A stretch of 64,000 nt of DNA from Thermoanaerobaculia bacterium (lineage in GTDB: Bacteria > Acidobacteriota > Thermoanaerobaculia > Gp7-AA8): the NCBI GenBank assembly GCA_041748075.1, contig JBGTDX010000036.1, forward strand, positions 58,505 to 122,504. The letters run 5' to 3'. Made by a program: the position numbers and the translations under genes. Every line of letters begins with the position of its first letter. The stretch's first letter is position 1. A model generated the notes under the pieces. The model made no database searches. It was not told the DNA's origin and was given only the letters and a program-made list of their open reading frames with translations. Shown here in pieces: positions 8,255-48,083 of this stretch.

Positions 8255-9667
8255 CTATGGGATCAGGAGGCGGACTACAACTCGACGGTTGGCCTGGCGT
8301 CCTGCCGCCGTGGTGTTGTCACCGATTGCTTCCGTCGTTCCACGTCCTTCCACGGTGATCCGGGAAGCGTCGATACCGTGACGGCTGACGAGATAATCCC
8401 GGGTTGCTTCGGCGCGCCGGCGATCAAGATCGCGGTTTGAGCCGGTGTTCTCACGGTCGTCGGTATATCCGATGACGATCGCGGTGGCTGCAGGTTCCTG
8501 CTTCATCCGCAGGGCCACGTCGTCGAGGATCGCCTTTGCGATGTTGGTCAGGCGTGCTGACCCCGCATCAAAGCGGAGCTCGTCGGTGCGCAGGTCACGC
8601 GGTGCAGCCGGCGGAACTACTGGCGGCGGCGGCGGCGTGACTGGTGGTGGCGGTGGTGGTGGCGGAAGCGGTGGCGGCGGCGGTGGCGCCACTGCGGCCA
8701 GATGAACCGGAGCATAGTGGAGTCCGACCAGTCCACCGTGCGGGCAGTGGTCGTTGTCGCTGCTCCACATCGTGAGGTTGGAACGAACGGCGGCGCTCAT
8801 GGCCCAGCCGCTCGTACCGAACCAGTGACGGATGCCCGTTACTGCGTAGACGATGTCGTCAGGAGAACGGTCGCCTCCCGTGTGGAAGATTGTGTTGATC
8901 TCGCTGACCCAGTTGGTTGACGGCGCGAAAGCCAGAGGGATGTTCAGGCCGGCGTCTAACCGGAATTCGTCCGATACACTGAAGTCCCCGCCGTGGAAGA
9001 AGTCCAGGCGGTTTGCAGCGGTAGCGTCCCGATCGCCGCGAATCTTGTACGTCCCGGCGAAACTGAACTGGCGGTAGTTCCAGTGCAGCCCCGCTCCGAA
9101 ATCGGTGCTGCCGGTCGAGATTCCGCCGTCATCGTCACCCGTGCCGATGTCCGCGAAGAGCGAGAGTGCCAGTCGCGAGGCGTACGTGTTCGGGTCGAGA
9201 AGTCCGAACTTGGTACCGATGTGGAGGTTGCCGATGCCCGAGTCGTCATACTGACCCTGGAACGGATGACCGTTCACGAAGCCGGCAAAATCGCCTGCGT
9301 TCTGATCGAGCCAGACGTACGGGATCGATGCGACGATCTCCCAGCGGTCGGTGATGCCGTAGCCGATCGAAGCACTCAGACGTGAGTCTTCGATGTCGGC
9401 GTCGACATACGGACGGGCGCTCGGAATCCGCATCGCAAGCGGCGCGGGCGAGGCCAGGTAATCGTAGTTATTGAAGTAGATGCTGAACGACCAGTCGCCC
9501 TGGCGAAGCGTATCACCAGTGATGATGTTGAAGAGTCCGGTCTCACCGCTGGCAGTCGGGGCCACCAGGTTGAGCCGATCCTCATAAGTCAGTGTCTGGG
9601 CCGTGGCACCCGGCACCAGCAAGGCAAAACACAGCATAAACAGCAGAGTTCGTGTCACCTGACGCAA
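8255..9667 (-). CDS. OmpA-family outer membrane protein (N-terminal beta-barrel domain, poly-Pro linker, C-terminal OmpA peptidoglycan-binding domain)
   Basis: TTG start with AGGAGG RBS 5 nt upstream. Signal peptide. ~30-residue poly-proline linker. C-terminal OmpA_C motifs (TDDRENTGSNRDLDRRRAEATRDYL...NRRVVV). Confidence 0.85.
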   Translation of the reverse strand: MRQVTRTLLFMLCFALLVPGATAQTLTYEDRLNLVAPTASGETGLFNIITGDTLRQGDWSFSIYFNNYDYLASPAPLAMRIPSARPYVDADIEDSRLSASIGYGITDRWEIVASIPYVWLDQNAGDFAGFVNGHPFQGQYDDSGIGNLHIGTKFGLLDPNTYASRLALSLFADIGTGDDDGGISTGSTDFGAGLHWNYRQFSFAGTYKIRGDRDATAANRLDFFHGGDFSVSDEFRLDAGLNIPLAFAPSTNWVSEINTIFHTGGDRSPDDIVYAVTGIRHWFGTSGWAMSAAVRSNLTMWSSDNDHCPHGGLVGLHYAPVHLAAVAPPPPPPLPPPPPPPPVTPPPPPVVPPAAPRDLRTDELRFDAGSARLTNIAKAILDDVALRMKQEPAATAIVIGYTDDRENTGSNRDLDRRRAEATRDYLVSRHGIDASRITVEGRGTTEAIGDNTTAAGRQANRRVVVRLLIP

Positions 9668-9853: not shown

Positions 9854-11281
9854 GTGAACGAATCTAGCTCTCTCCCCCGCGTCTGCCTGATACTCGCCAC
9901 GTTCCTCGTGCTCGCGCTGCCGCTCTCCGCGCAGAGCGTTCCGGAGCCGGAGGCTCCCGCCGGTTCCAGCGAAGCACCGCCGCCGGGGCGGGCGATCCAA
10001 TCTTCACCGGAGGTACCCGAGCCGGATCCCGAGTCCGTTCCCCCGGCCACGCCAGATGAGGATCCGATCGAGACCCCTCTTCCCAGTCCGGAGGACCCGC
10101 CGGAGGTTACCTCGGTGTCCCCTCCGGATCCCGCCCCCACCCCGTCCCCGACCAGGAGCGAGCGGCGCGATTCCTTCCCGAATCTGAATATCTACCTTCC
10201 GGAAGGAGAATTCGACATACGACTCAGGCGACTCATCAAGAATGTGTTGTTCGAGGGGCAGGTGAGCTACAACTTCGTGGATGGGGACGTTTCTACGTTT
10301 CTCCGCTACAAGTATTACGCTCGGAACCTAACGTACAAGATCGGCCTGTTCGACTCACTGGAGTTCGAATCGATCGATGATACGAGTGGAGACTTCGATC
10401 GGGTCCGAGGCGCGCTGGTTCAGTTTGAACGGCCCGTCGATTACAACAACCGCTACCTTCTCCTGCTCCAGAATGACCGGCTGCAGTTTGGTGACGTGAA
10501 CGATCCCGACAACAACAAAAGCAACAGCTACGCGAAGATTGCCTACCAGTTCGGGAGCCCGTTCGATGAGCGTCTCAATGCGCTCGCCGGAGAATCCCGA
10601 GGGAGGACCACCCCCGTACTTACGGCGTACCGCGAGCTCGGCCCGCAGAACACAGCTCTCGCGATCGCGCTCACGCAATCCTTTGAAGCCGGCGGCGACT
10701 ACAGCTACACAAAGGTGGAAGCGGAGGGGCTCAAGCGCTGGGAAGTGGGAAGCACGACGTTTCTCGTCTCGCGCGTGCATGTCGGTTCGGTGATCAGCCG
10801 CCAGGACTCCGGACTTGTGCCGGATATCCCCGAGGATCCGGACCAGCAGGAGCTCTTCCGTCGGGCATCGGGCCTGTTCCTCATCCCTCGCTATGACCTG
10901 ATCCGCATCGGCGACCGGGGCGCGATGAAGGCAATCGAGGGGGATGCCCGCGGCACCGACTCCGCGCACATGACGAGCGAGCTTTTTACGCCGATCTTCA
11001 GAAATCGTGACCATCGGACGGGCATCTTCACCTGGACTAACCTCTATGGGATCCTTTATGCCGGTGTCGGCACGGTCGGCTATCGCGACCGAGTTGCCGA
11101 GGCGCTCGTGGGTTATGAATTCGGCGATCTGCTGGTCGACGCAGGGCTGGGATTCGAAGTCAGCCTGTTTGTGCGGGATTACGAAGTCTTCATCAACTGT
11201 GTCTACGCCAGAACGGTTTCCACCCCACAAAGTCTGGAAGGCGATGACATCCGTTTCTCCGTGCGTACGGCGCGATTCTGA
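9854..11281 (+). CDS. Secreted outer-membrane beta-barrel-like protein with acidic Pro/Glu-rich N-terminal extension
   Basis: GTG start. Signal peptide (LALPLSAQS). ~100 aa low-complexity PE-rich region, then a beta-rich domain ending in a terminal Phe (RTARF), the usual OMP C-terminal signature. Confidence 0.6.
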   Translation: MNESSSLPRVCLILATFLVLALPLSAQSVPEPEAPAGSSEAPPPGRAIQSSPEVPEPDPESVPPATPDEDPIETPLPSPEDPPEVTSVSPPDPAPTPSPTRSERRDSFPNLNIYLPEGEFDIRLRRLIKNVLFEGQVSYNFVDGDVSTFLRYKYYARNLTYKIGLFDSLEFESIDDTSGDFDRVRGALVQFERPVDYNNRYLLLLQNDRLQFGDVNDPDNNKSNSYAKIAYQFGSPFDERLNALAGESRGRTTPVLTAYRELGPQNTALAIALTQSFEAGGDYSYTKVEAEGLKRWEVGSTTFLVSRVHVGSVISRQDSGLVPDIPEDPDQQELFRRASGLFLIPRYDLIRIGDRGAMKAIEGDARGTDSAHMTSELFTPIFRNRDHRTGIFTWTNLYGILYAGVGTVGYRDRVAEALVGYEFGDLLVDAGLGFEVSLFVRDYEVFINCVYARTVSTPQSLEGDDIRFSVRTARF

Positions 11282-11288
11282 GATTTGG

Positions 11289-11774
11289 CTACACTCTGTC
11301 GAGCGCCGCGTTGACGCTCCGCACGCCGGAGATTCTGCGGATCACCTGCGTCGCGAGATCCTTCTGCAGTTCTGATTGCACGGTTCCGCGCACTGTGACC
11401 ACTCCGTCGCGCGATGCAACGATCAGGCGGCAACCCTCGAGCGAGCGGGTGAGTGCCAGCTCGCGCTCGGCGTTGAGTACGATTGCCTCATCGTCGGGCA
11501 GCGGAACTACGCTCACCAAATTGGCCACGCGAGGGTACCCGAGGTCTGCAACGATCTGCCCGATTCGGGACGCCTGGTCGGCTCTCGATACCTGCCCTCG
11601 CACGATCGTGATGCCTTCCGACTCGACGATCTGCAGTCGGCTGACGCGAATGCCCTCCTCGGTCAAAGCGGACTCGACAGCAGTGGGAGCGGCCGAGGCG
11701 TCGGTCGGTACGAAGAGAAGGACGAGAGCGGCAGCCAATGCCAACGCTCCATATCGGCTCATGAAGGGGGTCAT
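11289..11774 (-). CDS. BON-domain periplasmic protein (OsmY-like, two BON repeats)
   Basis: Signal peptide then two repeats of the BON pattern (IRVSRLQIVESEGITIVRGQV ... and VTVRGTVQSELQKDLATQVIRRISGVRSVNAAL). Start set at the ATG preceded by AGGAG (the ORF-track start is 63 nt further upstream). Confidence 0.7.
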   Translation of the reverse strand: MTPFMSRYGALALAAALVLLFVPTDASAAPTAVESALTEEGIRVSRLQIVESEGITIVRGQVSRADQASRIGQIVADLGYPRVANLVSVVPLPDDEAIVLNAERELALTRSLEGCRLIVASRDGVVTVRGTVQSELQKDLATQVIRRISGVRSVNAALDRV

Positions 11775-11900
11775 GGGGGCTCCTGAGAAGAGAGGTGAAA
11801 TCTGGAAGCTCATGCCTTCCCATAATCCACGTTTCATGCCAAAGAAAAACCCGCATAAATATGCGGGTTTTCAATAGTTTACGATGTTGCGGGTACGAAC

Positions 11901-13013
11901 TCAGAACCGCAGAAGCGCCCCGACTCCTTCGTAGTTCAAAAGGGGCGAGGGGCCGGGAACGAGCTCCACCTGGGCGCCTTCCGTTTCGGCCGCCGCAATG
12001 AGTTCTTCGCCGAGGTCGACGCTCCGGACGCTCCTGCCACAGGCAGGGCAGCTGAGCGGAACCTGGTGGCCGATCGTGCTGCAGCTCGTGCACTGCCAGC
12101 CCGCCAGGACCGCGTCGGTATGAAGGAACAGGTGAAGGATGCTACGCATGTTTGCAGCGGCCGTGACCGATTCCGGTCCGAGGGCGCCGCGCTCTTTCTT
12201 TCGGCCGGCCTCTTCCAGGGAGACGAGCCGTTCTCCGCGCGTTCGAACCTGATGCTGTCGGATCAGGGTCAGACAAGCCTCGGTGATTTCACCCTGCTCA
12301 CTCCGTATATCGAGGTGGAGAGTGCCGATGACCCTGTCATCAACGCGCTTTGGAAGAAAGCTGCGGAAGTTGGCCAGGTTGCGCTCCTGCCCGCTGATGA
12401 TCACACACGGAAACCGTTCGCTGTCGATCATCCGTGCGAGAACCTCCGCGACCTCCTTATGATGGCGGTCGATGTGGTCCCTGACGTGTCGCTGCATATT
12501 CGCCTGGGACCAGCCGCCCTGATCGTGCGACCGGGGCGTCTCAGGATGTTCCAGGTCGATTTCGTAAAGAATGCGCCCGAATGCCAGCTCGAATATGCGC
12601 GCGTACTTGGCGTCGACCATCACCAGGGCTGCGGGCGGATACTCCTGCCGCAGCTGGGCGAGCGGTTTGAGATGGGGCCGGTTCCCGATGCTGACATGTG
12701 GCGTCAGCGGAACCGGGAGCTCGATCGGAACGAAGAACTCCTGGGCCGGACAGCAGAACATGGCCAGGCCGCGCGTCGCGGGATCGAGCGACTTCGCGAC
12801 GTACTCTTCGATCTGTAGAGTCGCCCGTTCCACCTCGCGCTTGTGACCGTTGACGCTGAGCTCGTCTCTGACGCGCTTGAGCTCGTCTTTGAGATAGAGC
12901 CGGAGGCGGTCTTCCTGGGCTTCGTCTCCCCTCGTGGTGTCGAGGTAGAAACTGACGAAGGCATCGTCGCTGCCTCCCAGGGCTGCAAGCTGCCGGATCT
13001 GTTCGGTAATCAT
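11901..13013 (-). CDS. eRF1/Pelota-like (baeRF / VLRF1 superfamily) three-domain protein with C-terminal zinc-ribbon insert
   Basis: Length and domain spacing resemble the eRF1/Dom34 N, central and C domains. The central region carries a Gly-Gly-x-x-Gln loop (HDQGGWSQ) where release factors carry GGQ. CTSCSTIGHQVPLSCPACG zinc ribbon. Assignment is from memory of the baeRF families, not from a search. Confidence 0.5.
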   Translation of the reverse strand: MITEQIRQLAALGGSDDAFVSFYLDTTRGDEAQEDRLRLYLKDELKRVRDELSVNGHKREVERATLQIEEYVAKSLDPATRGLAMFCCPAQEFFVPIELPVPLTPHVSIGNRPHLKPLAQLRQEYPPAALVMVDAKYARIFELAFGRILYEIDLEHPETPRSHDQGGWSQANMQRHVRDHIDRHHKEVAEVLARMIDSERFPCVIISGQERNLANFRSFLPKRVDDRVIGTLHLDIRSEQGEITEACLTLIRQHQVRTRGERLVSLEEAGRKKERGALGPESVTAAANMRSILHLFLHTDAVLAGWQCTSCSTIGHQVPLSCPACGRSVRSVDLGEELIAAAETEGAQVELVPGPSPLLNYEGVGALLRF

Positions 13014-13237
13014 TCGGGACTCCTCTCGGGTGATGTTGGAGAATGGGGAAGCGACACGGACTCCAGCTCGTCGCCTAAATGCGGAACGAGAGTACGTGCA
13101 CGATGAAGGTGCACGGTCCAGATCAGCAGAAGTAACAGGACGACCAGCAGGCCGATGCCGATCAAAGCTGATAGTCTTCGAATCATCGCACCGTGTAGCT
13201 CATGAGATTTTTAGCAACGGATGTGCCACGGAGGGGA

Positions 13238-13267
13238 AGTACACAGTACACACTACACAGTAGACAG
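13238..13267 (+). repeat. Tandem heptamer repeat (GTACACA x4, degenerate) in the divergent promoter region
   Basis: gtacaca gtacaca ctacaca gtagaca read directly from the sequence, between the baeRF gene and the ADH gene. Confidence 0.5.
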
Positions 13268-13361
13268 AAGGCTGTGAAGACTGAAGACGACAAACTCCGG
13301 TCGCTCCTGTCGACGCCCTTCGGTCTCCTGTCTCCTGCCTGGCTGATCAGATGAGGTTCCA

Positions 13362-14387
13362 TTGAAAGCTGTCGTCATTCGCGAACATGGTGGACTCGAG
13401 CGGCTCGAGCTGGTCGAACATCCCGATCCTGATGACCGGAATCGGGCCATCATATCCGTTCGGGCGGTAGCGCTGAACCATCTCGACATCTGGCTCCGGC
13501 GAGGTGTCCCGGGACACAGGTTCCCGCTGCCGATGATTCCAGGCTCCGAAGTGAGCGGGGTGATCGAGTCGCTCCCGTATGAAGCGGGTCCATTCGTTCC
13601 GGGAGACGAAGTGATCGTGGCGCCCGGAGTCTCATGCGGACTCTGCATTGCCTGTACGAGCGGCAACGATCCTCTCTGCAGGGGCTTCGGCATTCTGGGA
13701 GAGACCGAGAACGGCGGGTGTGCCGCACGGATCGCCGTGCCGGTGAGGAATCTCGTCCCGAAGCCGCCGTCTCTCTCATTCATCGAAGCCGCCGCTCTGC
13801 CGCTGGATTTCCTCACCTCGTGGCACATGCTCGTGGCGAGAGCCGCAGTCAGGCCGGGAGAGACCGTGCTGGTGCATGCCGGCGGGTCCGGCGTGGGTAG
13901 CGCGGCACTTCAGATCGCAAAGCTCTGGGGTGCGGTTGTCATCGCCACCGCCGGAACGAAAGAAAAAATCAACCAGGCGCTCGAGCTCGGAGCAGATCAC
14001 GCCATCCCTTACCGCGAGGTCGACTTCGTTGCCGAAGTGAGAAAGCTCACCGGCAAGCGAGGCGTGGACATCGTAGTCGAGCACGTGGGCGCCGAGACGT
14101 TCGACGGTTCGATGAGGTCGCTCGCGAAGGGTGGACGTCTCGTTACCTGCGGAGCGACGACCGGCGCAGAGGTGACGATCAATCTTCGCCTCGTTTTCTT
14201 CAAGCTGCTCTCGATTCTCGGCTCTACGATGGGTAGTATCGGCGAGCTGCATGAGATCATGAAACATGTGAACGCCGGCAGACTGCGTCCCGTGGTCGGA
14301 AAGGTGCTTCCGCTCGATGCCGTCGCCGAGGGACACCGCCTTCTGGAGAACCGCGAGGTGTTCGGCAAGGTCGTGCTTGAAACCTGA
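13362..14387 (+). CDS. Zn-dependent alcohol dehydrogenase / quinone oxidoreductase (medium-chain dehydrogenase/reductase family)
   Basis: GroES-like N-domain carrying the structural-zinc Cys cluster (CGLCIACTSGNDPLC). Rossmann motif GGSGVGSAALQIAK. Confidence 0.85.
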   Translation: MKAVVIREHGGLERLELVEHPDPDDRNRAIISVRAVALNHLDIWLRRGVPGHRFPLPMIPGSEVSGVIESLPYEAGPFVPGDEVIVAPGVSCGLCIACTSGNDPLCRGFGILGETENGGCAARIAVPVRNLVPKPPSLSFIEAAALPLDFLTSWHMLVARAAVRPGETVLVHAGGSGVGSAALQIAKLWGAVVIATAGTKEKINQALELGADHAIPYREVDFVAEVRKLTGKRGVDIVVEHVGAETFDGSMRSLAKGGRLVTCGATTGAEVTINLRLVFFKLLSILGSTMGSIGELHEIMKHVNAGRLRPVVGKVLPLDAVAEGHRLLENREVFGKVVLET

Positions 14388-17989: not shown

Positions 17990-18064
<75 letters not shown>

Positions 18065-33920: not shown

Positions 33921-35618
33921 ATGCGAAGCGATCGCAAGGCACTTCTCCTGGTGGTCGCGGTATGGGCCATCAGCACGGGACTCTGGCTCAACCCCGGAAT
34001 AACGAAGCCGGATGGAGTCGGCTATTACGTGTATCTCCCATCGCTCCGGATCGACGGCGACCTGCTGTTCTTCAATGAATGGGATCGCTTCGGGATGATC
34101 GACCGGGGAGTGATTCTCCACAAAGAGGTCACCGCGACGGATCATCTCGGCAACCACTGGACGATCGGGAGTGCGCTCTACTGGTTGCCCTCGTTCCTGT
34201 TCGCTGATCTTCTGCGGACGATTCCGGCGCTTGCGCTGTTTCCGCCCGACGGGGTCTCTCTTCCGTACAACGTGGCAGTTGGCTTCGCAAGCGCGGTTGC
34301 CGGACTGCTGACACTCCTGATGGGATTCCGCGTTGCACGGGAGTTCGTGCCGGTATTTCCCGCTGCTCTCGCAACGATGGGGCTCTGGTTCGGATCGCCG
34401 CTGCTTTTTTATTCAGTGAGGAATCCGATTCTCGGGCATGCGACGTCCGCATTTGCGTGCGGGCTTGTGTTGCTGCTCAGCCTCCGGCTGCGAGTCGAAC
34501 GGGCAGCGTTCTGCTGGTTTGCTACGGGGCTTGCGGCCGGTTTCGCATTCGCGGTGCGCCCGCAGAACGGAACGTTTCTTCTGATGCCATTCGTGATCGC
34601 GGCGGGCTCCGAACGCCCGCCTCTTCAGCGGATCGGTCTGGTTCTCAGCGGCTTCGCCGTGGCCGCATTGCCGCAGGTGATCGTCAGTTTCGTGCTCTAC
34701 GGTACTCCGTACGGATTTCTCACGGGTGGCGGCGCGGCAAAGCCCTTCGCCGCGTTCGAACGGATATGGATCTGGGAGCCGATCCTCTCCTGGTACCACG
34801 GTCTGATTCCATGGAGCCCCATCATTGCGCTGGGGCTCGCGGGGCTCATCCTGCTCTGGCGACGCGACCGGCTGCTGGCAGCCGCGGGGCTTTACGCGTT
34901 CGCTTCGCAGTGGTTCGTCAACGCGACCCTCGAGCGATCGTTCTGGGGTGCGCATGCGTTCGGTCAGCGACGGTTCGACAACTGCACGATCTTCTTTCTG
35001 CTCGGCGCCGCAGTGCTTCTCTCCCGATGGCCGCGCGCAGTGCAGGTGAGCATCGTGGCAGCGACCTCTGTCTGGACGATGTCGATATTCTTCGCGGCGA
35101 TGGGGCCTCTCGATCTCGGTGCGTACTACACGCCGGCTGAGCTGGCTGCCCTGCAGTGGGCGTCCCTTTCGAGTGTAGCCGGCTACCTGAAGCCGTTCGC
35201 CTCGGTTCCTCAGGCGATGAAGGGGATTGTCGCGCTTGTCTGCCTCTGCCTCTGTGCTGCATGGGTCGCAGCGGGCGTTCTGCTGTGGCGCTTCCGAAAA
35301 AACGGCGTTGCGCCGATTGCCGTCTTCGCCGCGGTTTACTTCCTCGTCATGAGCGGTGTCCTCGCATTCGCGGGAAGCACGGGACGAAGCCGGCTGATTC
35401 ACATGCAGTCGCTGATCGGCTTCAACCGGACGGTCAGCGCAGCGCTTGGCGGAGCCGACGCACGGACCGGTCTTCTGGCGGACGAAGCGAGGTACCTCAG
35501 AAAGGCGGGTCGCATCGAGGAAGCTGAGGCAACTGAAATGGAGTTGGCCGCGCTCGAACGCGCGCGGCGCGCCGGCATCGAGCGGCTGCGCGCGATGGCA
35601 GAGGAGGAGCGAAGGTGA
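33921..35618 (+). CDS. Polytopic membrane protein, putative GT-C-type glycosyltransferase with C-terminal coiled-coil/TPR-like tail
   Basis: More than 10 TM helices with a first extracytoplasmic loop rich in Asp/Tyr (PDGVGYYVYLPSLRIDGD). 4-nt overlap with the next gene. Confidence 0.5.
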   Translation: MRSDRKALLLVVAVWAISTGLWLNPGITKPDGVGYYVYLPSLRIDGDLLFFNEWDRFGMIDRGVILHKEVTATDHLGNHWTIGSALYWLPSFLFADLLRTIPALALFPPDGVSLPYNVAVGFASAVAGLLTLLMGFRVAREFVPVFPAALATMGLWFGSPLLFYSVRNPILGHATSAFACGLVLLLSLRLRVERAAFCWFATGLAAGFAFAVRPQNGTFLLMPFVIAAGSERPPLQRIGLVLSGFAVAALPQVIVSFVLYGTPYGFLTGGGAAKPFAAFERIWIWEPILSWYHGLIPWSPIIALGLAGLILLWRRDRLLAAAGLYAFASQWFVNATLERSFWGAHAFGQRRFDNCTIFFLLGAAVLLSRWPRAVQVSIVAATSVWTMSIFFAAMGPLDLGAYYTPAELAALQWASLSSVAGYLKPFASVPQAMKGIVALVCLCLCAAWVAAGVLLWRFRKNGVAPIAVFAAVYFLVMSGVLAFAGSTGRSRLIHMQSLIGFNRTVSAALGGADARTGLLADEARYLRKAGRIEEAEATEMELAALERARRAGIERLRAMAEEERR

Positions 35619-37180
35619 CGCGGTCCCGACTCGTGCTCGCCGCATGGCTGATGCTGGCACTTCTGCTCGTGCCGGTCTTCCCGCACTTCATTTCTCCGAA
35701 CGAATTCAGCCGCTGGGCGGTTGCCGCCGCCGTCGTGGAGCAGCGAACCATCGAAGTCTCGACGCTCTTGCCCATCCTCGGCTCACGACTCGAAGATCTC
35801 TCGGAGGTCGATGGACGGATTTACTCCAACAAAGCGCCCGGAGGGGTTCTCGTCGCCCTGCCGGGGTACCTCGCCGCCCGCGTGATCGCCGGGCCGCCAT
35901 CCGCGAGCTCGCTGCGGCCCGTTGTCTACGCGATGCGATGGGCGGGGTCGACCCTGCCTCTGCTGGTGCTGGCCGTAGTCATGGTGAGGCTCGCCCGCCG
36001 CTCCGGTGCGAGCGAAGACGCCGGCGCCTTTCTTCTGCTCTCCATGTTGTTCGGCACCATTTGTTTCACGTATGGCCTCCTTCTCTTTTCGCACGCGCTC
36101 ATCGCCGCGGCCCTGTTTCTCGCGTGGGTGCTGTTGTACACACGAAAGGCTGGCGGCGTCGGAGGCGATTATGCAGCCGGTGCCCTCGTGGGGCTCGCCG
36201 TACTCTCGGAGTATCCGGCCGCAGTTCCTGCCGCGGTTCTGGTGCTCGGTTCGTTTCGCCGTCACGATCCCTCCAGGCTCGTTCGAATCCTGCTCGGCGG
36301 CGCGCCATTCGCAATCATGCTGGCTGCGTACAACACAGCAGCCTTCGGTGGGCCGTTCCATCTCTCGTCGGGATATGAGCGTGCAGGTGAGTTCCGGGAG
36401 CTCGCGGGCTCCGGCCTCTTTGGAATCGGGCTGCCTTCTCCCGCGATCCTGCTGCGGCTGCTCTTTGACCCATCGAAGGGACTGCTGCTGTTTTCACCTC
36501 TGCTTCTTCTCGCGCCGATGGGATGGAAGCCTCTGCGCGCCGCCCTGGGCCGGCGCGCTTTGTTCACCCTGGTTGCTGCGCCGCTGTCGATCCTGCTTCT
36601 TTATTCGGGATATCCGAACTGGCACGGAGGCTGGACCGTCGGTCCGCGCTATCTTGTAGCGGCGTTACCATTTCTCTGTTTTCCGCTTGCATTCGTCTGG
36701 CGGGGGCGACTCGCCGCCTGCCTTGCTGGATACTCCGTGACGGCAGTTGTGGTCACGTCTCTGGTGTTTCCCTTCGTGCCGCCGGCGTTTCCTTTCCCCT
36801 GGGGATCGTTCGCGTTTCCTCTCATGCGTGACGGTCTGATCACGCCGAATGCTCTGCATTTCGTTTCTAGCGGGCTCGCGGTGATCGTTCCGGTGCTCGT
36901 GGTGATGATCGCACTGGTCGCGGTTTTCAGGAGCCGGGAGCTGCTGTTTGTAGCGGCGGGGATTCTTTTCGCGATGGCCATCGGCCATGTCGCCGAGCGT
37001 CATGTCGATCGATCGATCGGTGTGAGGATTCAGAGAGGTTACGTAGCGGAAGTCTACTTCCTGGATCGGGGTGCGCTGCCGGAGAGCGCCGGGCCGGGTG
37101 TGCCCCTTCCCGCCAGGCTCATCGAACGGTTGCGTTATGAAATGACGTTGCCGCCGACATCGTGGCCTTTCGAGGACTGA
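35615..37180 (+). CDS. Polytopic membrane protein, putative GT-C (ArnT/PMT-like) glycosyltransferase
   Basis: 12+ TM helices and N-terminal layout reminiscent of the PMT_2 family. Translationally coupled to the upstream GT-C-like gene. Confidence 0.55.
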   Translation: MTRSRLVLAAWLMLALLLVPVFPHFISPNEFSRWAVAAAVVEQRTIEVSTLLPILGSRLEDLSEVDGRIYSNKAPGGVLVALPGYLAARVIAGPPSASSLRPVVYAMRWAGSTLPLLVLAVVMVRLARRSGASEDAGAFLLLSMLFGTICFTYGLLLFSHALIAAALFLAWVLLYTRKAGGVGGDYAAGALVGLAVLSEYPAAVPAAVLVLGSFRRHDPSRLVRILLGGAPFAIMLAAYNTAAFGGPFHLSSGYERAGEFRELAGSGLFGIGLPSPAILLRLLFDPSKGLLLFSPLLLLAPMGWKPLRAALGRRALFTLVAAPLSILLLYSGYPNWHGGWTVGPRYLVAALPFLCFPLAFVWRGRLAACLAGYSVTAVVVTSLVFPFVPPAFPFPWGSFAFPLMRDGLITPNALHFVSSGLAVIVPVLVVMIALVAVFRSRELLFVAAGILFAMAIGHVAERHVDRSIGVRIQRGYVAEVYFLDRGALPESAGPGVPLPARLIERLRYEMTLPPTSWPFED

Positions 37181-37221
37181 GCCGAGGGCTTCCGGCAGAA
37201 TCGCCGCGCACGTTCGTTCCG

Positions 37222-38067
37222 TCAGGAGCGGTTGGAAACCTGTTCGGGGACCTCGGCTGGAACCGGAGGCGTGTCCTGCACTTTTTTCGTCCGGAAAATC
37301 GGATGCGAGTAAAGCTGCTTCTTGTGCAGCTTGTAGAAAAACATCGTCTTGAGAATTCCCAGTCCGTAGCGGGAGGCGCGCCAGAACCCGATCTGGGAAG
37401 CCTCCGGGAAATACCGCGTCTGGATGGGGACCTCGCGGATCACCATCTTGCTCGCCACTCCCTGAGCGATGATCTCAGTGTCGAAGATGAAGTCGTCCGA
37501 GTTCGCCTCGAGGTTGACCGTCTCGAGATAGTGGCGCGAATAGGCGCGGAAACCGGAGTGATATTCGGAGAGGAAGACGTAAAACGTCGCGTTCTCGATC
37601 ATGGTCAGAAAGAGGTTGGCGAAGTACTTCCACTTCGGCATGCCACCCTCGATGGGGCGGCCGCCCAGCATGCGCGAGCCGAACACCGCGTCGCATTCAT
37701 CGTTGAGCAGGGGCTTCACGAGCTCCGGGACGATCGTGGGGTCGTACTGGTGATCCGGATGCACCATGACCATGATCTCGCCGCCCAGCTCATCCATCGC
37801 GGTCCGGTAGCATGTTTTCTGGTTGCCGCCGTACCCCCGGTTCCGGGTGTGAACGACGGTGCGGATGCCGAGCTCCCTGGCCACCTCGACGGTCCGGTCG
37901 CGAGAGAGGTCATCGACCAGAAGGATCTCGTCGACCCACTCCTGGGGAATGTCGTTGTAGGTCGCGACCAGGGTTTTTTCCGCGTTGTAGGCAGGAAGGA
38001 CGACCACGACCTTCTTCGAGCGGCGGGGAGGAATCTCGTCCATATGAGGAGGGCTGGAGAATATCAC
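37222..38067 (-). CDS. GT2-family polyprenol-phosphate glycosyltransferase (Dpm1/CsbB/GtrB-like)
   Basis: VVVVLPAYNAEKTL...VDDLSRDRT and DxD region typical of GT-A GT2 enzymes. No TM core. Size of undecaprenyl-phosphate sugar synthases. Confidence 0.8.
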   Translation of the reverse strand: MIFSSPPHMDEIPPRRSKKVVVVLPAYNAEKTLVATYNDIPQEWVDEILLVDDLSRDRTVEVARELGIRTVVHTRNRGYGGNQKTCYRTAMDELGGEIMVMVHPDHQYDPTIVPELVKPLLNDECDAVFGSRMLGGRPIEGGMPKWKYFANLFLTMIENATFYVFLSEYHSGFRAYSRHYLETVNLEANSDDFIFDTEIIAQGVASKMVIREVPIQTRYFPEASQIGFWRASRYGLGILKTMFFYKLHKKQLYSHPIFRTKKVQDTPPVPAEVPEQVSNRS

Positions 38068-44391: not shown

Positions 44392-45798
44392 ATGACATTG
44401 CCTCGACGCTTACTCGGATGCCTCGCGCTGCTGCTGATCGTCCTCTCGGGCGGCTCCTGCAGGAAGTCGGAAGCCGTGGCGGAAGATCCCGCCGATCTCG
44501 AGGCGGAGCAGTACTTCATCAGCTATCTCCGGATCGATACGTCGAACCCGCCGGGCAACGAGACCGCCGCCGCCAACTTCTTTCATCAGATTTTTCAGAA
44601 GGAAGGAATCGAATCCCGACTGGTTGGCCCGAACCCCGCCCGGATGTCGGTATACGCGCGGCTGCGCTCGGGCGGTTCTGCGCCTGCGCTGGTGCTCATG
44701 CACCATCTCGATGTCGTGCCTGCCGATGACGCGCACTGGACGGTTCCTCCGTTCGAGGGAGTCTCGAAGGGCGGTTACATCTGGGGCCGGGGTGCGCTCG
44801 ACATCAAGTCCATGGGCGTTGCAAACCTCATGGCGATGCTCGACCTGAAACGATCCGGAGCCACCCTGAATCGCGATGTGATTTTTCTCGGAGTCGCTGA
44901 CGAGGAAGTGGGTGGAGCCATGGGAGCTCAGTTCCTGCTCGAGAAACACCCCGAGCTCTTCGAGGGGATCGGGTACGTGCTCAACGAAGGAGGATCGAAC
45001 GAGACGATCGTCGATTACGTTTCGTACTGGGGAATTGAGATCGCGCAGAAAGTTCCTCTCTGGGTGCGCATCTCCACGAAGGGAAGGGCGGAGCATGCGG
45101 CGGTTCCCCCCGACTCGGGCGGCAGCGCGGCGCAGCTGCTCGATATTCTCCGTGACCTCCAGGCCATGCCGCGGCCGTATCACCTCACCCCCGCCGTGCG
45201 TGACTACTTTCTCTCATTGGCGAAAGCGAAGAAGGGAGAGAAGCAGGAGATGCTGCTGAATCCCGAACGTTACGAGAACAACCCGCAGCTCGCCGCGAGG
45301 CTCCCTGCCGGCAGCCGGTCCCTTTTGACCCATACGATGGCGATCACGCGACTTCAGGCGGGCAGTGTGATCAACGCCATGCCCACGGAGGCTTCCGCAT
45401 GGCTGGACTTCCGTCTTCTGCCCGGTTCGTCACCCCAGGCGATGGTCAGAGAGCTCGATAGAGTGATTGGAGATCGGGGAGAGCTCGAGGTCGTGCTCGC
45501 GGGGATCACGACGCCGCCTGCGCCGTCGAATACCGATCTTTATCAGGCACTCGAACGTGTGATGCGGCGCGCCGAGCCGCGCTCGGTAGTCGGGCCGCTC
45601 GTTTCCGCGGGCACCTCTGACAGCCGCTTTTTCCGTGCGCGCGGAGTTCCTACCTACGGGATCTCTCCGTTCAAAGTGAATTACTACGATGGAGACACTG
45701 TCCACGGACCGGATGAGCGGATCCGGAGGACGTTCTTTCTCCAGGGTGTCGGGGTGATGAAGCAGATCGTTCGCGAATTCTGTGTCGAACGGGGATGA
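44392..45798 (+). CDS. M20-family metallopeptidase lipoprotein (paralog B)
   Basis: Lipoprotein-type signal (LIVLSGGSC). Same M20 motifs as paralog A (HHLDVV, VADEE, NEGG). The two N-terminal regions are close paralogs. Confidence 0.8.
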   Translation: MTLPRRLLGCLALLLIVLSGGSCRKSEAVAEDPADLEAEQYFISYLRIDTSNPPGNETAAANFFHQIFQKEGIESRLVGPNPARMSVYARLRSGGSAPALVLMHHLDVVPADDAHWTVPPFEGVSKGGYIWGRGALDIKSMGVANLMAMLDLKRSGATLNRDVIFLGVADEEVGGAMGAQFLLEKHPELFEGIGYVLNEGGSNETIVDYVSYWGIEIAQKVPLWVRISTKGRAEHAAVPPDSGGSAAQLLDILRDLQAMPRPYHLTPAVRDYFLSLAKAKKGEKQEMLLNPERYENNPQLAARLPAGSRSLLTHTMAITRLQAGSVINAMPTEASAWLDFRLLPGSSPQAMVRELDRVIGDRGELEVVLAGITTPPAPSNTDLYQALERVMRRAEPRSVVGPLVSAGTSDSRFFRARGVPTYGISPFKVNYYDGDTVHGPDERIRRTFFLQGVGVMKQIVREFCVERG

Positions 45799-45862
45799 AG
45801 GTTCCCGGAATCCTGAGCCCGCCGGGCCGGACAGGAGATGTTCGACCACTCGAGGTCGCACC

Positions 45863-47989
45863 GTGAGGGCCAGATTTCTCTACGCTGCACTTGTTGCCCT
45901 CGCGCTCGTCCCGTTTCTTCCGGCATTGATTCGTGGCGAGGTCTTCACCCTCCGCGATCACAGCGACTACTTCATTCCCCTGCATCAGTACACGACGGAC
46001 CAGATCCTGGCCGGAGAGCTTCCGCTCTGGAATCCCCTGAACGGGAACGGTGAGCAGTGGCTGGCCAATCCGCAGACGGCGGTTTTTTATCCGCCCGCGC
46101 TCGTGTTCCTTCTTCTGCCGTTCGCAACGGCATACGTGCTCTTTCTGGCGCTGCACGTCGCAGTCCTTGCCGCGGGATCTTTCCTGCTCTTCAGGCGATG
46201 GGTGGATCGAGGTCCCGCGTTCTTCGGTGCGGTGTGTCTTTCGCTTTCCGGACCGACGCTCTCTCTGCTGGATGTATCGAACAACCTGCGAACGTTCGCA
46301 TGGATCCCGCTGGTTCTCTGGGCCGCACTCGAGAGAACAGGAACTGAGTCCCGGCTGCCGGTGACAGTTCCCTCGACGCTTCTCGCCCTGCTCTTTCTGG
46401 GAGGCGAGCCGTTTCTGGCCCTCGTCGGGGCGTTGCTGTTCAGCATCATCGCCGTAAGCAGAAAGCGTTCGGGAGCGCTGCGGGAAATCGGTCAGGCCGG
46501 CATCCTGGCGGCGCTTCTCTCGATGGTACAGATCATTCCATTTCTGGGGATGCTGGCCGGAAGCGATCGCGCGAGCGGCTTCGAGCGCGAGCTTGCCTTC
46601 CGCGAGTCGCTGCATCCCGCCGACTGGTCGCTCCTGACACTTTCTCCAGCGCTGTCGGGAGGCGAGGGTCTGATTGAGTCTTCGCAGAGTTACATCCCGA
46701 TCCTTTACGCCGGTACGGCGGTAGTCTTCCTTGCACTCCTGGGCGTGGCAGGCGCGCTGCGACGCGACGCTGCGCATCGGAGCGTCGTGTTCGCATTCAC
46801 CGGTCTCTTCGCCGGCGTTGCCGTAGTTGCGGCGGGCAGCCACCTCGGTTCTGCAGCCGAGGTACTCGTCGCATTGAAGGTGACGGTGAACCGGTACCCG
46901 GCACGCCTCATCCCCTTTGGAGCTCTGGCTGTTTGTGCGCTCGCGGCCATTGGGGCTCACTCGCTGCGAATGTCAGGGCGGGGAACGCGCGCTGCCGCGC
47001 TCGCAGCGCTTGTCGCGCTCGTGGCGTATTCGGTCAGTAATCATGACCCGGTAGATCCGGCGGCGGTTCCGCTGGCGGCCGGGCTTCTGGCCCTGCAGGG
47101 TCTGCTTCTCCTTCTCATGATTTTGAAGCCGGACCGGTTGCGTCTGATCGTGCCGCTGGGGCTCCTGGTTGCCGCAGACCTCCTCGTTGCTGCACGGCCT
47201 CTGCTCATGACGGGCCCACATCCGGCAGAACTTCCGGCGTTCGTCGGCGGGATCGAGCCGTCGATGAAAATTGCGCGCCTTCCGGACCTGGACCGCCGCA
47301 GCGACTCCTCGCGCCTGGATTCATTGCCCGGCTACACGAATCTTGCGGCGGAAGTCCACAACATCTCGACGGCGGCTCCAGTGAGCGATCGCCGCGCGAT
47401 GCAGCTTCACGACCAGGCGCTATTCACGCCGGACGCCGCGTTGTTGCGATTCATGTCGGTTGGCTATCTCATTACCAATCGGCCGTTGAGTGCGCCTGGT
47501 ATCGCGCCGGTTGCAACGTCGGGTGCTGTACGGCTCCATACCCTTGCGGGTGCGTGGCCGATGGCGACACTCTGGAAGGACTCGCGCCCGCTGGAAGCTG
47601 TGCTGAACAGCTTCGAGTCACCAGGTGCGGCAATCCATCTGAAGCCGGATGGCGAGGCCCACATTCAACGGATGGGCAGCAGCGAGGCGGTCGTGCGAAT
47701 ATCGACGGATGCACCCGCAATGCTCGTACTGAATCAACTCGATGCAGCAGGATGGACAGTTTCCGTGGATGGAGAACCCGCAGAAGGATTACGGGTGGGC
47801 GGACTCTTCCGCGCCGTGCGCGTTCCGGAGGGAGATCACCTCGTGCACTGGCGATACGCGCCTCCGTTTTTCACGATCGGTCTCATGATTTCGCTGTTGA
47901 CTGCGCTGTTTCTGGTCATGATGACAATTCATTTGTCACGCAGCGCGCGAGGTGTTGTAGGATGGCGAAACAGACGCGCCAGACGTTGA
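45863..47989 (+). CDS. YfhO-like polytopic membrane protein (GT-C-type glycosyltransferase, paralog 3)
   Basis: Start set at the in-frame GTG giving MRARFLYAALVALALVPF. The ORF-track start at 45782 would overlap the M20 gene and encodes a non-hydrophobic leader. Shares motif block with paralogs 1 and 2. Confidence 0.6.
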   Translation: MRARFLYAALVALALVPFLPALIRGEVFTLRDHSDYFIPLHQYTTDQILAGELPLWNPLNGNGEQWLANPQTAVFYPPALVFLLLPFATAYVLFLALHVAVLAAGSFLLFRRWVDRGPAFFGAVCLSLSGPTLSLLDVSNNLRTFAWIPLVLWAALERTGTESRLPVTVPSTLLALLFLGGEPFLALVGALLFSIIAVSRKRSGALREIGQAGILAALLSMVQIIPFLGMLAGSDRASGFERELAFRESLHPADWSLLTLSPALSGGEGLIESSQSYIPILYAGTAVVFLALLGVAGALRRDAAHRSVVFAFTGLFAGVAVVAAGSHLGSAAEVLVALKVTVNRYPARLIPFGALAVCALAAIGAHSLRMSGRGTRAAALAALVALVAYSVSNHDPVDPAAVPLAAGLLALQGLLLLLMILKPDRLRLIVPLGLLVAADLLVAARPLLMTGPHPAELPAFVGGIEPSMKIARLPDLDRRSDSSRLDSLPGYTNLAAEVHNISTAAPVSDRRAMQLHDQALFTPDAALLRFMSVGYLITNRPLSAPGIAPVATSGAVRLHTLAGAWPMATLWKDSRPLEAVLNSFESPGAAIHLKPDGEAHIQRMGSSEAVVRISTDAPAMLVLNQLDAAGWTVSVDGEPAEGLRVGGLFRAVRVPEGDHLVHWRYAPPFFTIGLMISLLTALFLVMMTIHLSRSARGVVGWRNRRARR

Positions 47990-48083
47990 AACGCTGTGAA
48001 TCATGATTCATAAAGTTCTCGCAATGATCCCGGCGAGCCCGTAGTAGAATGTCGCACTTCCGATCCCACATCCGAGGAAGTTC

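What the first reader, a model, noticed from the sequence alone, without database searches (positions are those of the whole stretch)
11901..13013. Bacterial eRF1/Pelota-like (baeRF-type) protein with a zinc-ribbon insert
The 370-aa product has a three-domain layout like archaeo-eukaryotic release-factor/Pelota proteins. It carries a central Gly-Gly-x-x-Gln loop (HDQGGWSQ) and a C-terminal CxxC...CxxC ribbon. Such proteins are rare in bacteria and are proposed to act in ribosome rescue or RNA/phage conflict. Neighbours are unrelated envelope genes (BON protein, OMP), so function cannot be inferred from context.
Basis: partly seen in the sequence, partly recalled or inferred. Interest (0 to 1): 0.55.

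Follow-up and report, generated by a model that had tools for sequence, protein, structure and literature searches.

The report
Balon-like ribosome factor with GGW loop
This gene encodes a bacterial relative of the archaeal/eukaryotic release factor eRF1 that belongs to the same family as the recently solved 'Balon' ribosome hibernation factors, but unlike them it keeps a strictly conserved Gly-Gly-Trp-Ser-Gln loop and a zinc ribbon, so whether it only plugs idle ribosomes or also releases peptides is still untested.

Summary
In detail: a 370-aa gene at 11901-13013 (-) with HDQGGWSQ (aa 163-170) and CxxC...CxxC (aa 308-325).

NIKS is absent. Aligned to aRF1/eRF1, the GG falls on the GG of GGQ, so Trp replaces the catalytic Gln. 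The later Gln matches the second Gln of archaeal GGQSQ. The zinc ribbon is the ancestral aRF1 ribbon and sits where Balons carry their EF-Tu-binding hairpin.

The GGWSQxxxQRH loop is the most conserved part of the protein and has a fixed length. Verified Balons have lost the glycine pair.

Most likely this is a codon-independent A-site/peptidyl-transferase-centre plug used under stress. A catalytic release activity cannot be excluded.

New here: a conserved 58-aa transmembrane ORF is translationally coupled upstream, and an OsmY-like BON gene lies downstream.

It is a known kind of protein, of moderate interest.

The parts
11901..13013 (-). Gene for the 370-aa baeRF-1 family 10 / Balon-like protein (stop codon at 11901-11903)
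12678..13013 (-). N-terminal domain (aa 1-112), eRF1 domain-1-like, without NIKS or YxCxxxF
   Evidence: The profile alignment to aRF1 4af1 puts NIKS on the variable loop around aa 52-60, and the F of YxCxxxF on invariant P113. Family invariants here are core residues L9, Y23, F86 and F94.
12264..12677 (-). Middle domain (aa 113-250), RNase-H-fold eRF1 domain 2, matching the baeRF_family10 model
12486..12527 (-). Loop and helix start H163-D-Q-G-G-W-S-Q-A-N-M-Q-R-H176, the homolog of the GGQ loop
   Evidence: G166/G167/W168/S169/Q170/Q174/R175/H176 are each kept in 111-114 of 115 homologs down to 29% identity. GG aligns on the GG of GGQ in aRF1/eRF1. Loop length is 27-28 aa in 102/106, and the GGWSQ-to-QR spacing is 3 in 78/78.
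11904..12263 (-). C-terminal domain (aa 251-370), eRF1 domain 3 / Pelota-type, ending in the family signature GVGALLRF
   Evidence: eRF1_3 matches weakly. The profile alignment runs to the C-terminus of aRF1, eRF1 and the Balons. G363, A366, L368, R369 and F370 are invariant or nearly so.
12027..12101 (-). Zinc ribbon insert (aa 305-329: GWQCTSCSTIGHQVPLSCPACGRSV)
   Evidence: All four Cys are present in 98/115 close homologs and about 87% of 145 cluster representatives. It aligns to the aRF1 ribbon in 4af1. It occupies the same site, at about the same length, as the Cys-free hairpin of the Msmeg1130 clade.
13010..13186 (-). Upstream 58-aa ORF for a single-pass membrane peptide (MIRRLSALIGIGLLVVLLLLLIWTVHLHR + variable tail); its TGA stop overlaps the ATG of the main gene (ATGA at 13010-13013)
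   Evidence: Homologous ORFs lie directly upstream in L001-L006. Codon-position differences are 114/46/156, as expected for coding sequence. No Pfam family matches.
13020..13027 (-). Shine-Dalgarno-like GAGAGGAG, 6 nt upstream of the ATG of the main gene and inside the 3' end of the mini-ORF
   Evidence: Sequence read. GGAGG-type sites sit at the same place in L001, L003, L005 and L006.
11289..11837 (-). Downstream same-strand gene for a secreted BON-domain (OsmY-like) protein, possibly co-transcribed
   Evidence: Pfam BON 54 bits. No terminator-like site lies between the two genes. The same arrangement occurs in L003/L004 and L005 but not in L001/L002.

Best explanation
The protein is a tRNA-shaped, eRF1-derived factor of the bacterial baeRF-1/Balon lineage. 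It most likely binds the A site of the 70S ribosome without reading a codon.

Proposed mechanism (inferred):
- The N domain has lost the NIKS and YxCxxxF stop-codon readers and sits at the decoding centre.
- The middle domain pushes the invariant GGW-SQ...QRH loop and the following Arg/His-rich helix toward the peptidyl-transferase centre.
- The C domain presents its zinc ribbon where Balons present their EF-Tu-binding hairpin.
- The most likely outcome is reversible occupation and protection of the ribosome's active centres during stress or starvation (hibernation), not stop-codon-dependent termination.

Shown here: family membership, the fold, the closest similarity to ribosome-bound Balons, the absence of NIKS, Trp at the canonical Gln position, conservation of the loop and ribbon, and the local gene arrangement. 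Inferred: ribosome binding, EF-Tu contact, the stress role, and lack of catalysis.

The gene is expressed from a small unit: a translationally coupled 58-aa membrane peptide upstream and, in this genome, an OsmY-like BON gene downstream.
For: - Sequence: profile-to-PDB E-values are 1.2e-30 (Msmeg1130), 6.9e-23 (Rv2629) and 6.3e-16 (aRF1).
- Family: Msmeg1130, solved in the A site, scores 124.6 bits on the same Pfam model baeRF_family10 that the window protein hits at 100 bits.
- Motifs: NIKS aligns to a non-conserved loop. W168, not Gln, occupies the canonical Gln position of GGQ.
- The later Gln: Q170 matches the second Gln of archaeal GGQSQ (P0353). Across 145 cluster representatives Q170 is kept in 73%, less than G167 (93%) or W168 (83%), and GGWAA/GGWSA/GGWSS variants exist.
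- Loop decay elsewhere: the verified Balon Rv2629 has a decayed version of the same loop (AGWNG...FQH). An ortholog with a destroyed loop (P0077) persists as an intact gene in the same synteny.
- C domain: the zinc ribbon sits at the site and length of the Msmeg1130-clade hairpin, which PMC10901736 describes as the EF-Tu-binding insertion.
- Context: the BON/OsmY-type neighbour is among the stress neighbours reported for Balon genes.
Against: - Both glycines of the GG pair are kept (86-99%), whereas the verified Balons have lost them (AGQ in the Msmeg1130 clade, AGW in Rv2629).
- The loop is the most conserved segment of the protein and has a fixed length. Burroughs and Aravind (PMC6514570) treat this as the signature of catalytically active families.
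- G-W-S-Q fits their GxuQ/GGxSQ pattern of the Vms1-like families, and the Pfam acVLRF1 model is passed at 37.3 bits.
- The protein is far below the NCBIfam equivalog cutoffs of all three Balon families (78.9/480, 67.8/320, 44.4/330).
- No HPF/RaiA gene was seen next to it in the window or in 84 related loci. This is a weak negative.
- Balon's HP motif could not be mapped.
- Nothing here measures ribosome binding.
Confidence: 0.5

Rival explanations
1. It is a catalytically active, codon-independent release or rescue factor. It docks in the A site like Balon, but its GG-containing loop enters the peptidyl-transferase centre and triggers hydrolysis of peptidyl-tRNA on stalled or stress-arrested 70S ribosomes. 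The backbone at W168, or the side chain of Q170, would take the role of the GGQ glutamine.
For: GGWSQxxxQRH is kept in 111-114 of 115 homologs down to 29% identity. Loop length and spacing are fixed. The GG pair is retained, unlike in verified Balons. The loop fits the GGxSQ/GxuQ motif, and family 10 is singled out as potentially active in PMC6514570. The acVLRF1 model is passed. No HPF linkage was found. From my own recall, bacterial RF Gln-to-other mutants keep substantial hydrolytic activity while Gly mutants do not.
Against: Trp replaces the canonical Gln, and Q170 is homologous to the non-catalytic second Gln of GGQSQ. Q170 is the least conserved loop position across the wider clade, and Q-less GGW variants are common. 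A loop-less ortholog is maintained. The nearest solved relatives are non-catalytic A-site plugs, one of them in the same Pfam family. No experimental report of activity was found in the library.
Confidence: 0.3
2. It is a Vms1/ANKZF1-like factor that acts on split 50S subunits still carrying peptidyl-tRNA (bacterial RQC). It would free the chain by hydrolysis or by cutting the tRNA 3' CCA end. This is what NCBI's name for the homologs implies.
For: NCBI labels close homologs 'Vms1/Ankzf1 family peptidyl-tRNA hydrolase'. The loop has GGxSQ spacing as in the aVLRF-1/acVLRF-1 families. Pfam acVLRF1 scores 37.3 bits over aa 162-218.
Confidence: 0.07
3. It is an alternative stop-codon-dependent class-1 release factor of archaeal type working in a bacterium.
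For: It has the full three-domain aeRF1 architecture with the ancestral zinc ribbon, and the profile aligns end to end with aRF1.
Against: NIKS and YxCxxxF are absent and their positions are not conserved. GGQ is replaced by GGW. PMC6514570 notes that baeRF-1 proteins have never displaced RF1/RF2. The protein is much closer to Balons than to aRF1.
Confidence: 0.03
4. It is part of an anti-phage or inter-genomic conflict system that responds to ribosome-targeting effectors.
For: PMC6514570 proposes conflict as a driver for baeRF-1 diversification and lateral spread. The family has a patchy distribution across many phyla.
Against: No PADLOC defence family matches the protein or its neighbours above noise. 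The gene sits in conserved housekeeping synteny (MutL, UPF0102, OmpA) within Thermoanaerobaculia. GC content is flat across the region. No mobile-element or toxin neighbours recur.
Confidence: 0.03

Closest known systems
Balon ribosome hibernation factors, in particular Msmeg1130 (PDB 8v9j/8v9l), Rv2629 (8v9k) and P. urativorans Balon (8rd8/8rdv/8rdw); Helena-Bueno et al., Nature 2024 (PMC10901736)
   Different: Only 19-22% identity, and far below the NCBIfam cutoffs of all three Balon equivalogs. It keeps both glycines and an invariant GGW-SQ loop of fixed length, where Balons have AGQ-plus-extension, AGWNG or a lasso loop. The C-domain insert is still a four-Cys zinc ribbon. No RaiA/HPF linkage was seen. 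A transmembrane mini-ORF is coupled upstream.
baeRF-1 family 10 as defined computationally by Burroughs and Aravind 2019 (PMC6514570) and Pfam PF18854
   Same: It passes the Pfam model. It keeps the three-domain architecture and has a well-conserved loop glutamine, which is exactly the property those authors highlighted for family 10.
   Different: The Pfam family also contains the Msmeg1130 clade, whose loop is HERAGQIGGGPxGQ.... The window protein belongs to a separate GGWSQ and zinc-ribbon clade centred on Acidobacteriota.
Archaeal/eukaryotic class-1 release factor aRF1/eRF1 (e.g. 4af1, 3agk, 1dt9)
   Different: No NIKS or YxCxxxF. Trp stands in place of the catalytic Gln. The domain arrangement is nearer to ribosome-bound Balon (TM about 0.5 to eRF1 against 0.83).
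Vms1/ANKZF1-like release factors (VLRF-1 clade; acVLRF1 PF18859)
   Same: GGxSQ/GxuQ spacing of the loop glutamine. The Pfam acVLRF1 cutoff is passed over the loop and helix. NCBI names homologs after this family.
   Different: It has the complete N and C domains of the classical architecture. There is only marginal structural similarity to Vms1. baeRF_family10 scores far higher.
Pelota/Dom34
   Different: The N domain is of the eRF1/Balon type, not the Sm-like Pelota type. The loop is highly conserved, whereas it is poorly conserved in Dom34.

Membership tests
Pfam PF18854 baeRF_family10 | Score above the curated gathering threshold of the family model | tested here: met
   100 bits against 27.1, aa 113-248 covering model positions 1-139 of 143. 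It is the best of all baeRF models.
aeRF1 superfamily | Three-domain eRF1 architecture (N domain, RNase-H-fold middle domain, Pelota-type C domain) | tested here: met
Classical aRF1/eRF1 release factor | NIKS and YxCxxxF stop-codon recognition motifs in the N domain | tested here: not met
   NIKS aligns to the variable loop around aa 52-60. The F of YxCxxxF aligns to P113. Neither motif is present in the sequence.
Classical aRF1/eRF1 release factor | GGQ tripeptide at the tip of the middle-domain loop | tested here: not met
   The sequence is GGW: GG is in register with GGQ, but W168 replaces Gln. The TIGR03676 aRF1_eRF1 equivalog scores 46.1 bits against a cutoff of 234.7.
Balon hibernation factors (features listed in Suppl. 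Fig. 5 of PMC10901736) | Overall structure matching ribosome-bound Balon | tested here: met
Balon hibernation factors | Lack of NIKS in the N domain | tested here: met
Balon hibernation factors | Extended decoding-centre loop on the opposite face of the N domain (HP motif) | tested here: inconclusive
   The papers give no residue numbers. An N-domain profile did not reach the P. urativorans chain. Candidate conserved prolines are P102 (at least 90% across both clades) and invariant P113, but neither could be mapped to the motif.
Balon hibernation factors | [quoted passage not shown] | tested here: inconclusive
   Literally met, because the loop reads GGW and not GGQ. However, the glycine pair, a nearby Gln and a fixed loop length are retained under strong selection, unlike in the solved Balons.
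Balon hibernation factors | Insertion in the EF-Tu-binding C domain | tested here: met
   A 25-residue insert lies at the same alignment position, and at about the same length, as the Msmeg1130-clade hairpin. Here it is still a four-Cys ribbon.
Balon hibernation factors | [quoted passage not shown] | not testable with these tools
   Needs biochemistry or cryo-EM.
NCBIfam equivalogs NF052288 (MSMEG_1130), NF052289 (Rv2629) and NF052287 (AOC03_06830) ribosome hibernation factors | Score above the curated equivalog cutoff | tested here: not met
   78.9 against 480; 67.8 against 320; 44.4 against 330. It is related to all three but is a member of none.
Vms1/ANKZF1-like (VLRF-1) release factors | Loop glutamine in a GxuQ/GGxSQ context | tested here: met
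   G167-W168-S169-Q170. The motif definition is in PMC6514570. Pfam acVLRF1 scores 37.3 bits against a cutoff of 27.1 over aa 162-218.
Vms1/ANKZF1-like (VLRF-1) release factors | VLRF-1-type architecture (codon-recognition domain lost or replaced, clade-specific N extension) and structural similarity to Vms1 | tested here: not met

The most novel reading that the evidence does not exclude
This GG-retaining, zinc-ribbon-bearing clade may be a 'catalytic Balon'. It would be an eRF1-derived factor that enters the A site of bacterial 70S ribosomes without reading a codon, perhaps with EF-Tu docked on the ribbon. It would use a GGW-SQ loop to release the nascent chain before or while the ribosome is parked. 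That would make it a release/rescue route distinct from RF1/RF2, ArfA/ArfB and tmRNA. Its synthesis would be tied to a co-translated membrane mini-protein.
Probability: 0.25. Interest if true: 0.7.

Novelty: new member of a known kind. Interest (0 to 1): 0.35.

Why it matters
Balon showed that bacteria reuse an archaeal release-factor fold to silence ribosomes, and that the verified examples have lost the catalytic loop.

This clade is widespread: at least 521 species, mostly Acidobacteriota but spread over many phyla. It sits between aRF1 and the verified Balons. It has already lost codon reading and the canonical Gln, yet it still holds the glycine pair, a fixed-length loop and the zinc ribbon under strong selection.

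It is therefore a natural test case for two questions. Which residues separate 'plug' from 'hydrolase' in this fold? What does the C-domain insert do with EF-Tu?

For annotation, it also shows that two labels now applied to neighbouring clades of one Pfam family are both untested for proteins like this one. The labels are 'Vms1/Ankzf1 family peptidyl-tRNA hydrolase' and 'MSMEG_1130 family ribosome hibernation factor'.

Tried and rejected
- Genome scan with the 115-sequence alignment A1 failed because no stretch was conserved enough. It worked with the 15-sequence A2.
- Mapping Balon's HP motif did not succeed. The paper, the preprint and the supplement give no residue numbers. Two paper look-ups failed on term length. 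An N-domain-only profile against PDB reached only Msmeg1130, not the P. urativorans chain.
- No conserved operon partner was found across the family. Neighbour clustering over 84 loci gave no cluster larger than 8 loci. The transmembrane mini-ORF is limited to the window and L001-L006.
- HPF/RaiA search by tblastn gave no hit in the window or the loci.
- The promoter/terminator scan of 11000-13500 found one promoter-like site, no more than chance, and no terminator.
- Rfam and ARAGORN found nothing near the gene; the only hit is tRNA-Gly at 17990-18064.
- PADLOC gave no defence family. The E 0.0064 hit of the mini-ORF to a membrane CARF model is a hydrophobic-segment match and was rejected.
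- There is no paralog of the gene in the window.
- Stop-codon-dependent release factor was considered and rejected because the motifs are missing.

Full report
OBSERVATION. GGWSQ is at aa 166-170 (HDQGGWSQ = 163-170), and the two CxxC pairs are at 308-311 and 322-325. It is a real, conserved gene. There are 503 homologs from 98% down to 29% identity. There are 2,839, 1,518 and 146 cluster representatives at E<=1e-3, 1e-10 and 1e-30. At least 521 GTDB species genomes carry a relative with GGWSQ[AMS][RN]xQR. Most are Acidobacteriota, but Actinomycetota, Gemmatimonadota, Latescibacterota, Chloroflexota, Gastranaerophilales and others are also represented. The nearest named homologs (52-54% identity) and the shared synteny point to a Thermoanaerobaculia (Acidobacteriota) genome. 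GC content is flat across the region, so nothing suggests a recent insertion.

A KEY CROSS-CHECK. I reconstructed the Msmeg1130 and Rv2629 sequences from the alignments and scanned them against Pfam. Msmeg1130, which was solved in the A site of the M. smegmatis ribosome, is itself a baeRF_family10 protein at 124.6 bits, higher than the window protein. Rv2629 is family 2. So membership of family 10 does not set this protein apart from Balon. It places it in the same Pfam family as a verified one.

MOTIF ANATOMY. The family profile aligned to aRF1/eRF1 chains puts the GG of GGWSQ on the GG of GGQ. The family reads GGWSQanlQRh, against GGQSAqrfaRl in Halobacterium aRF1 and yeast eRF1, and GGQSQrryeRi in Aeropyrum aRF1. 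W168 therefore occupies the position of the catalytic glutamine. Q170 corresponds to the second, non-catalytic Gln of the archaeal GGQSQ variant. A NIKS-less, ribbon-bearing relative with GGQSQ (P0353) and others with GGMSQ, GGLSQ or GGESQ exist, which suggests a series running from GGQSQ through GG(M/L/Y)SQ to GGWSQ. NIKS aligns to a non-conserved loop (aa about 52-60), and the YxCxxxF phenylalanine aligns to invariant P113. No codon-reading motif is present. The CxxC...CxxC ribbon aligns to the aRF1 zinc ribbon. It is therefore ancestral, as Burroughs and Aravind proposed when they described the Cys-free two-strand insert of many baeRF-1 families as a degenerate ribbon. In the joint alignment the ribbon occupies the same position, at about the same length, as the Msmeg1130-clade insert VGADGxLYGGDExxPxG. 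The Balon paper describes that insert as the EF-Tu-binding insertion.

CONSERVATION. In 115 homologs down to 29% identity, G166, G167, W168, S169, Q170, Q174, R175 and H176 are each kept in 111-114 sequences. These are the most conserved positions of the whole protein. The four cysteines are kept in 98. The distance from the preceding strand to GGW is 27-28 residues in 102 of 106 measurable sequences. The GGWSQ-to-QR spacing is exactly 3 in 78 of 78 loci. In the less redundant set of 145 cluster representatives the order of conservation is G167 93%, G166 86%, W168 83%, R175 83%, S/A169 81%, Q174 81%, H176 74% and Q170 73%. Variants such as GGWAA, GGWSA and GGWSS occur, and the cysteines are at about 87%. 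Two close relatives have lost the loop: P0077 (PRGSAQ...) and P0101. P0077 is otherwise intact and sits in the same synteny.

The Msmeg1130 clade has its own conserved loop, HERAGQIGGGPxGQFxTPxREQR. M. smegmatis itself carries a 12-residue deletion within it. The AGQ of that loop is in register with GGQ/GGW. H163, G167, Q174 and R175 are shared by both clades. From my own recall, Gly-to-Ala changes in the GGQ of eRF1 abolish release (Frolova 1999, cited in PMC10901736), so AGQ fits a non-catalytic Balon. The window clade differs precisely in keeping both glycines.

CONTEXT. Across 84 related loci no neighbour is conserved; the largest neighbour cluster covers 8 loci. No HPF/RaiA was detected (weak). 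Within Thermoanaerobaculia the synteny is stable: MutL and UPF0102 on one side, then the gene, an optional BON gene, an unannotated 420-500-aa protein, and an OmpA-family protein.

First, a 58-aa ORF at 13010..13186 (-) encodes a single transmembrane helix (MIRRLSALIGIGLLVVLLLLLIWTVHLHR plus a variable tail). Its TGA overlaps the ATG of the main gene (ATGA), and a GAGAGGAG ribosome-binding site lies inside its 3' end. Homologs sit in the same place in all six Thermoanaerobaculia-type loci and in none of the 78 more distant ones. The codon-position substitution pattern (114/46/156) is that of a coding sequence. Second, the downstream same-strand gene is a secreted BON-domain, OsmY-like protein, with no terminator-like site in between. 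OsmY is listed among typical neighbours of Balon genes. Neither the protein nor its neighbours match a defence-system model.

MECHANISM. Best explanation (confidence 0.5): a codon-independent A-site factor of the Balon type. The N domain docks at the decoding centre without touching the codon. The middle-domain loop and its basic helix reach the entrance of the peptidyl-transferase centre, where the invariant Trp is well suited to stack on an rRNA or tRNA base (inference). The C-domain ribbon faces EF-Tu. The result would be a parked, protected ribosome during stress.

The main rival (0.3) is that the retained GG pair, the fixed loop length and the extreme conservation mean the loop still enters the catalytic centre and releases the nascent chain. 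Burroughs and Aravind raised this possibility for family 10.

The evidence that tips the balance toward a plug is as follows:
- Trp sits at the Gln position.
- Q170 is homologous to a non-catalytic residue.
- Q170 is less conserved than GGW.
- Loop-less orthologs persist.
- A verified Balon belongs to the same Pfam family.
- Rv2629 carries a decayed AGW version of the same loop.

The evidence that keeps the rival alive is the glycine pair and the loop constraint, which no verified Balon shows. A Vms1-like role on 50S subunits (0.07), a stop-codon-dependent RF (0.03) and a conflict system (0.03) are poorly supported.

COMPARISON AND NOVELTY. The kind is known. The family was defined computationally in 2019 (PMC6514570; Pfam PF18854), and relatives were solved on ribosomes in 2024 (PMC10901736). 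I found no paper in the library that tests a GG-retaining member. The Balon preprint states that all collected homologs lack GGQ. That is literally true here as well, but it hides the retained glycine pair.

I rate this a new member of a known kind, of moderate interest. It is ordinary as an annotation. It is useful as a natural intermediate between aRF1 and Balon, and as a clean test of which loop features separate a plug from a hydrolase. The coupled membrane mini-ORF is new but lineage-restricted, and its role is unknown.

Noticed in passing
window 13010-13186 (-); also L001 5835-5975, L003 5832-5984, L005 4831-5007, L006 4828-5007: A conserved 46-58-aa ORF encodes one transmembrane helix (M-[ILV]-RR-[LI]-[SA]-A...W-[AT]-V-H-x-H-R) with a variable tail. 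It lies immediately upstream of the baeRF10 gene. It overlaps the main gene's start by ATGA in the window, and overlaps or lies 16-25 nt away in the other loci. It is found only in the Thermoanaerobaculia-type loci and matches no Pfam family. It could be a membrane partner or a regulatory leader peptide.
   Followed up: partly
window 9854-11281 (+); homologs in L001, L002, L003, L004, L006: A 475-aa protein with a signal-like N-terminus and a Pro/Glu/Ser-rich segment has no Pfam match. It is syntenic with the baeRF10 gene in Thermoanaerobaculia, sitting between it and the OmpA-family gene. Probably an uncharacterised envelope protein.
   Followed up: partly
L003/L004 6001-7128 (protein P0077): An ortholog at 46% identity, in the same synteny and with the zinc ribbon and mini-ORF intact, has a destroyed loop (PRGKKPRGSAQYANAAHVQEH instead of PRxHDQGGWSQANMQRH). 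This is a natural loop knock-out that is still maintained as a gene.
   Followed up: partly
Proteins P0121-P0240 (Msmeg1130 clade), alignment A4: The clade annotated as MSMEG_1130-family hibernation factors has a strongly conserved loop, HERAGQIGGGPxGQFxTPxREQR. The M. smegmatis protein used for cryo-EM carries a 12-residue deletion within it, so the solved structure shows an atypically short loop for its clade.
   Followed up: partly
Proteins P0353, P0337, P0382, P0361, P0301, P0318: Ribbon-bearing relatives have GGQSQ, GGMSQ, GGLSQ or GGESQ in place of GGWSQ. None carries a NIKS motif at the eRF1 N-domain position. P0353 keeps a canonical GGQ without any codon-reading motif. Their organisms of origin were not looked up.
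   Followed up: no
window 13362-14387 (+): A zinc-type alcohol dehydrogenase / quinone oxidoreductase gene lies between MutL and the mini-ORF/baeRF10 unit. It is absent from that position in L001-L004, so it is a local insertion in otherwise conserved synteny.
   Followed up: no
window 34000-38000 and 46000-48000: AT skew is strongly negative (-0.20 to -0.25) over the long plus-strand ORFs 33921-35618, 35615-37180 and 45782-47989. This was not examined.
   Followed up: no
window 8255-9667 (-): An OmpA-family protein has a long poly-proline linker (PPPPPPLPPPPPPPPVTPPPPPVVPP) between a Phenol_MetA_deg-like beta-barrel part and the OmpA domain. The same feature is present in the syntenic homologs.
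   Followed up: no
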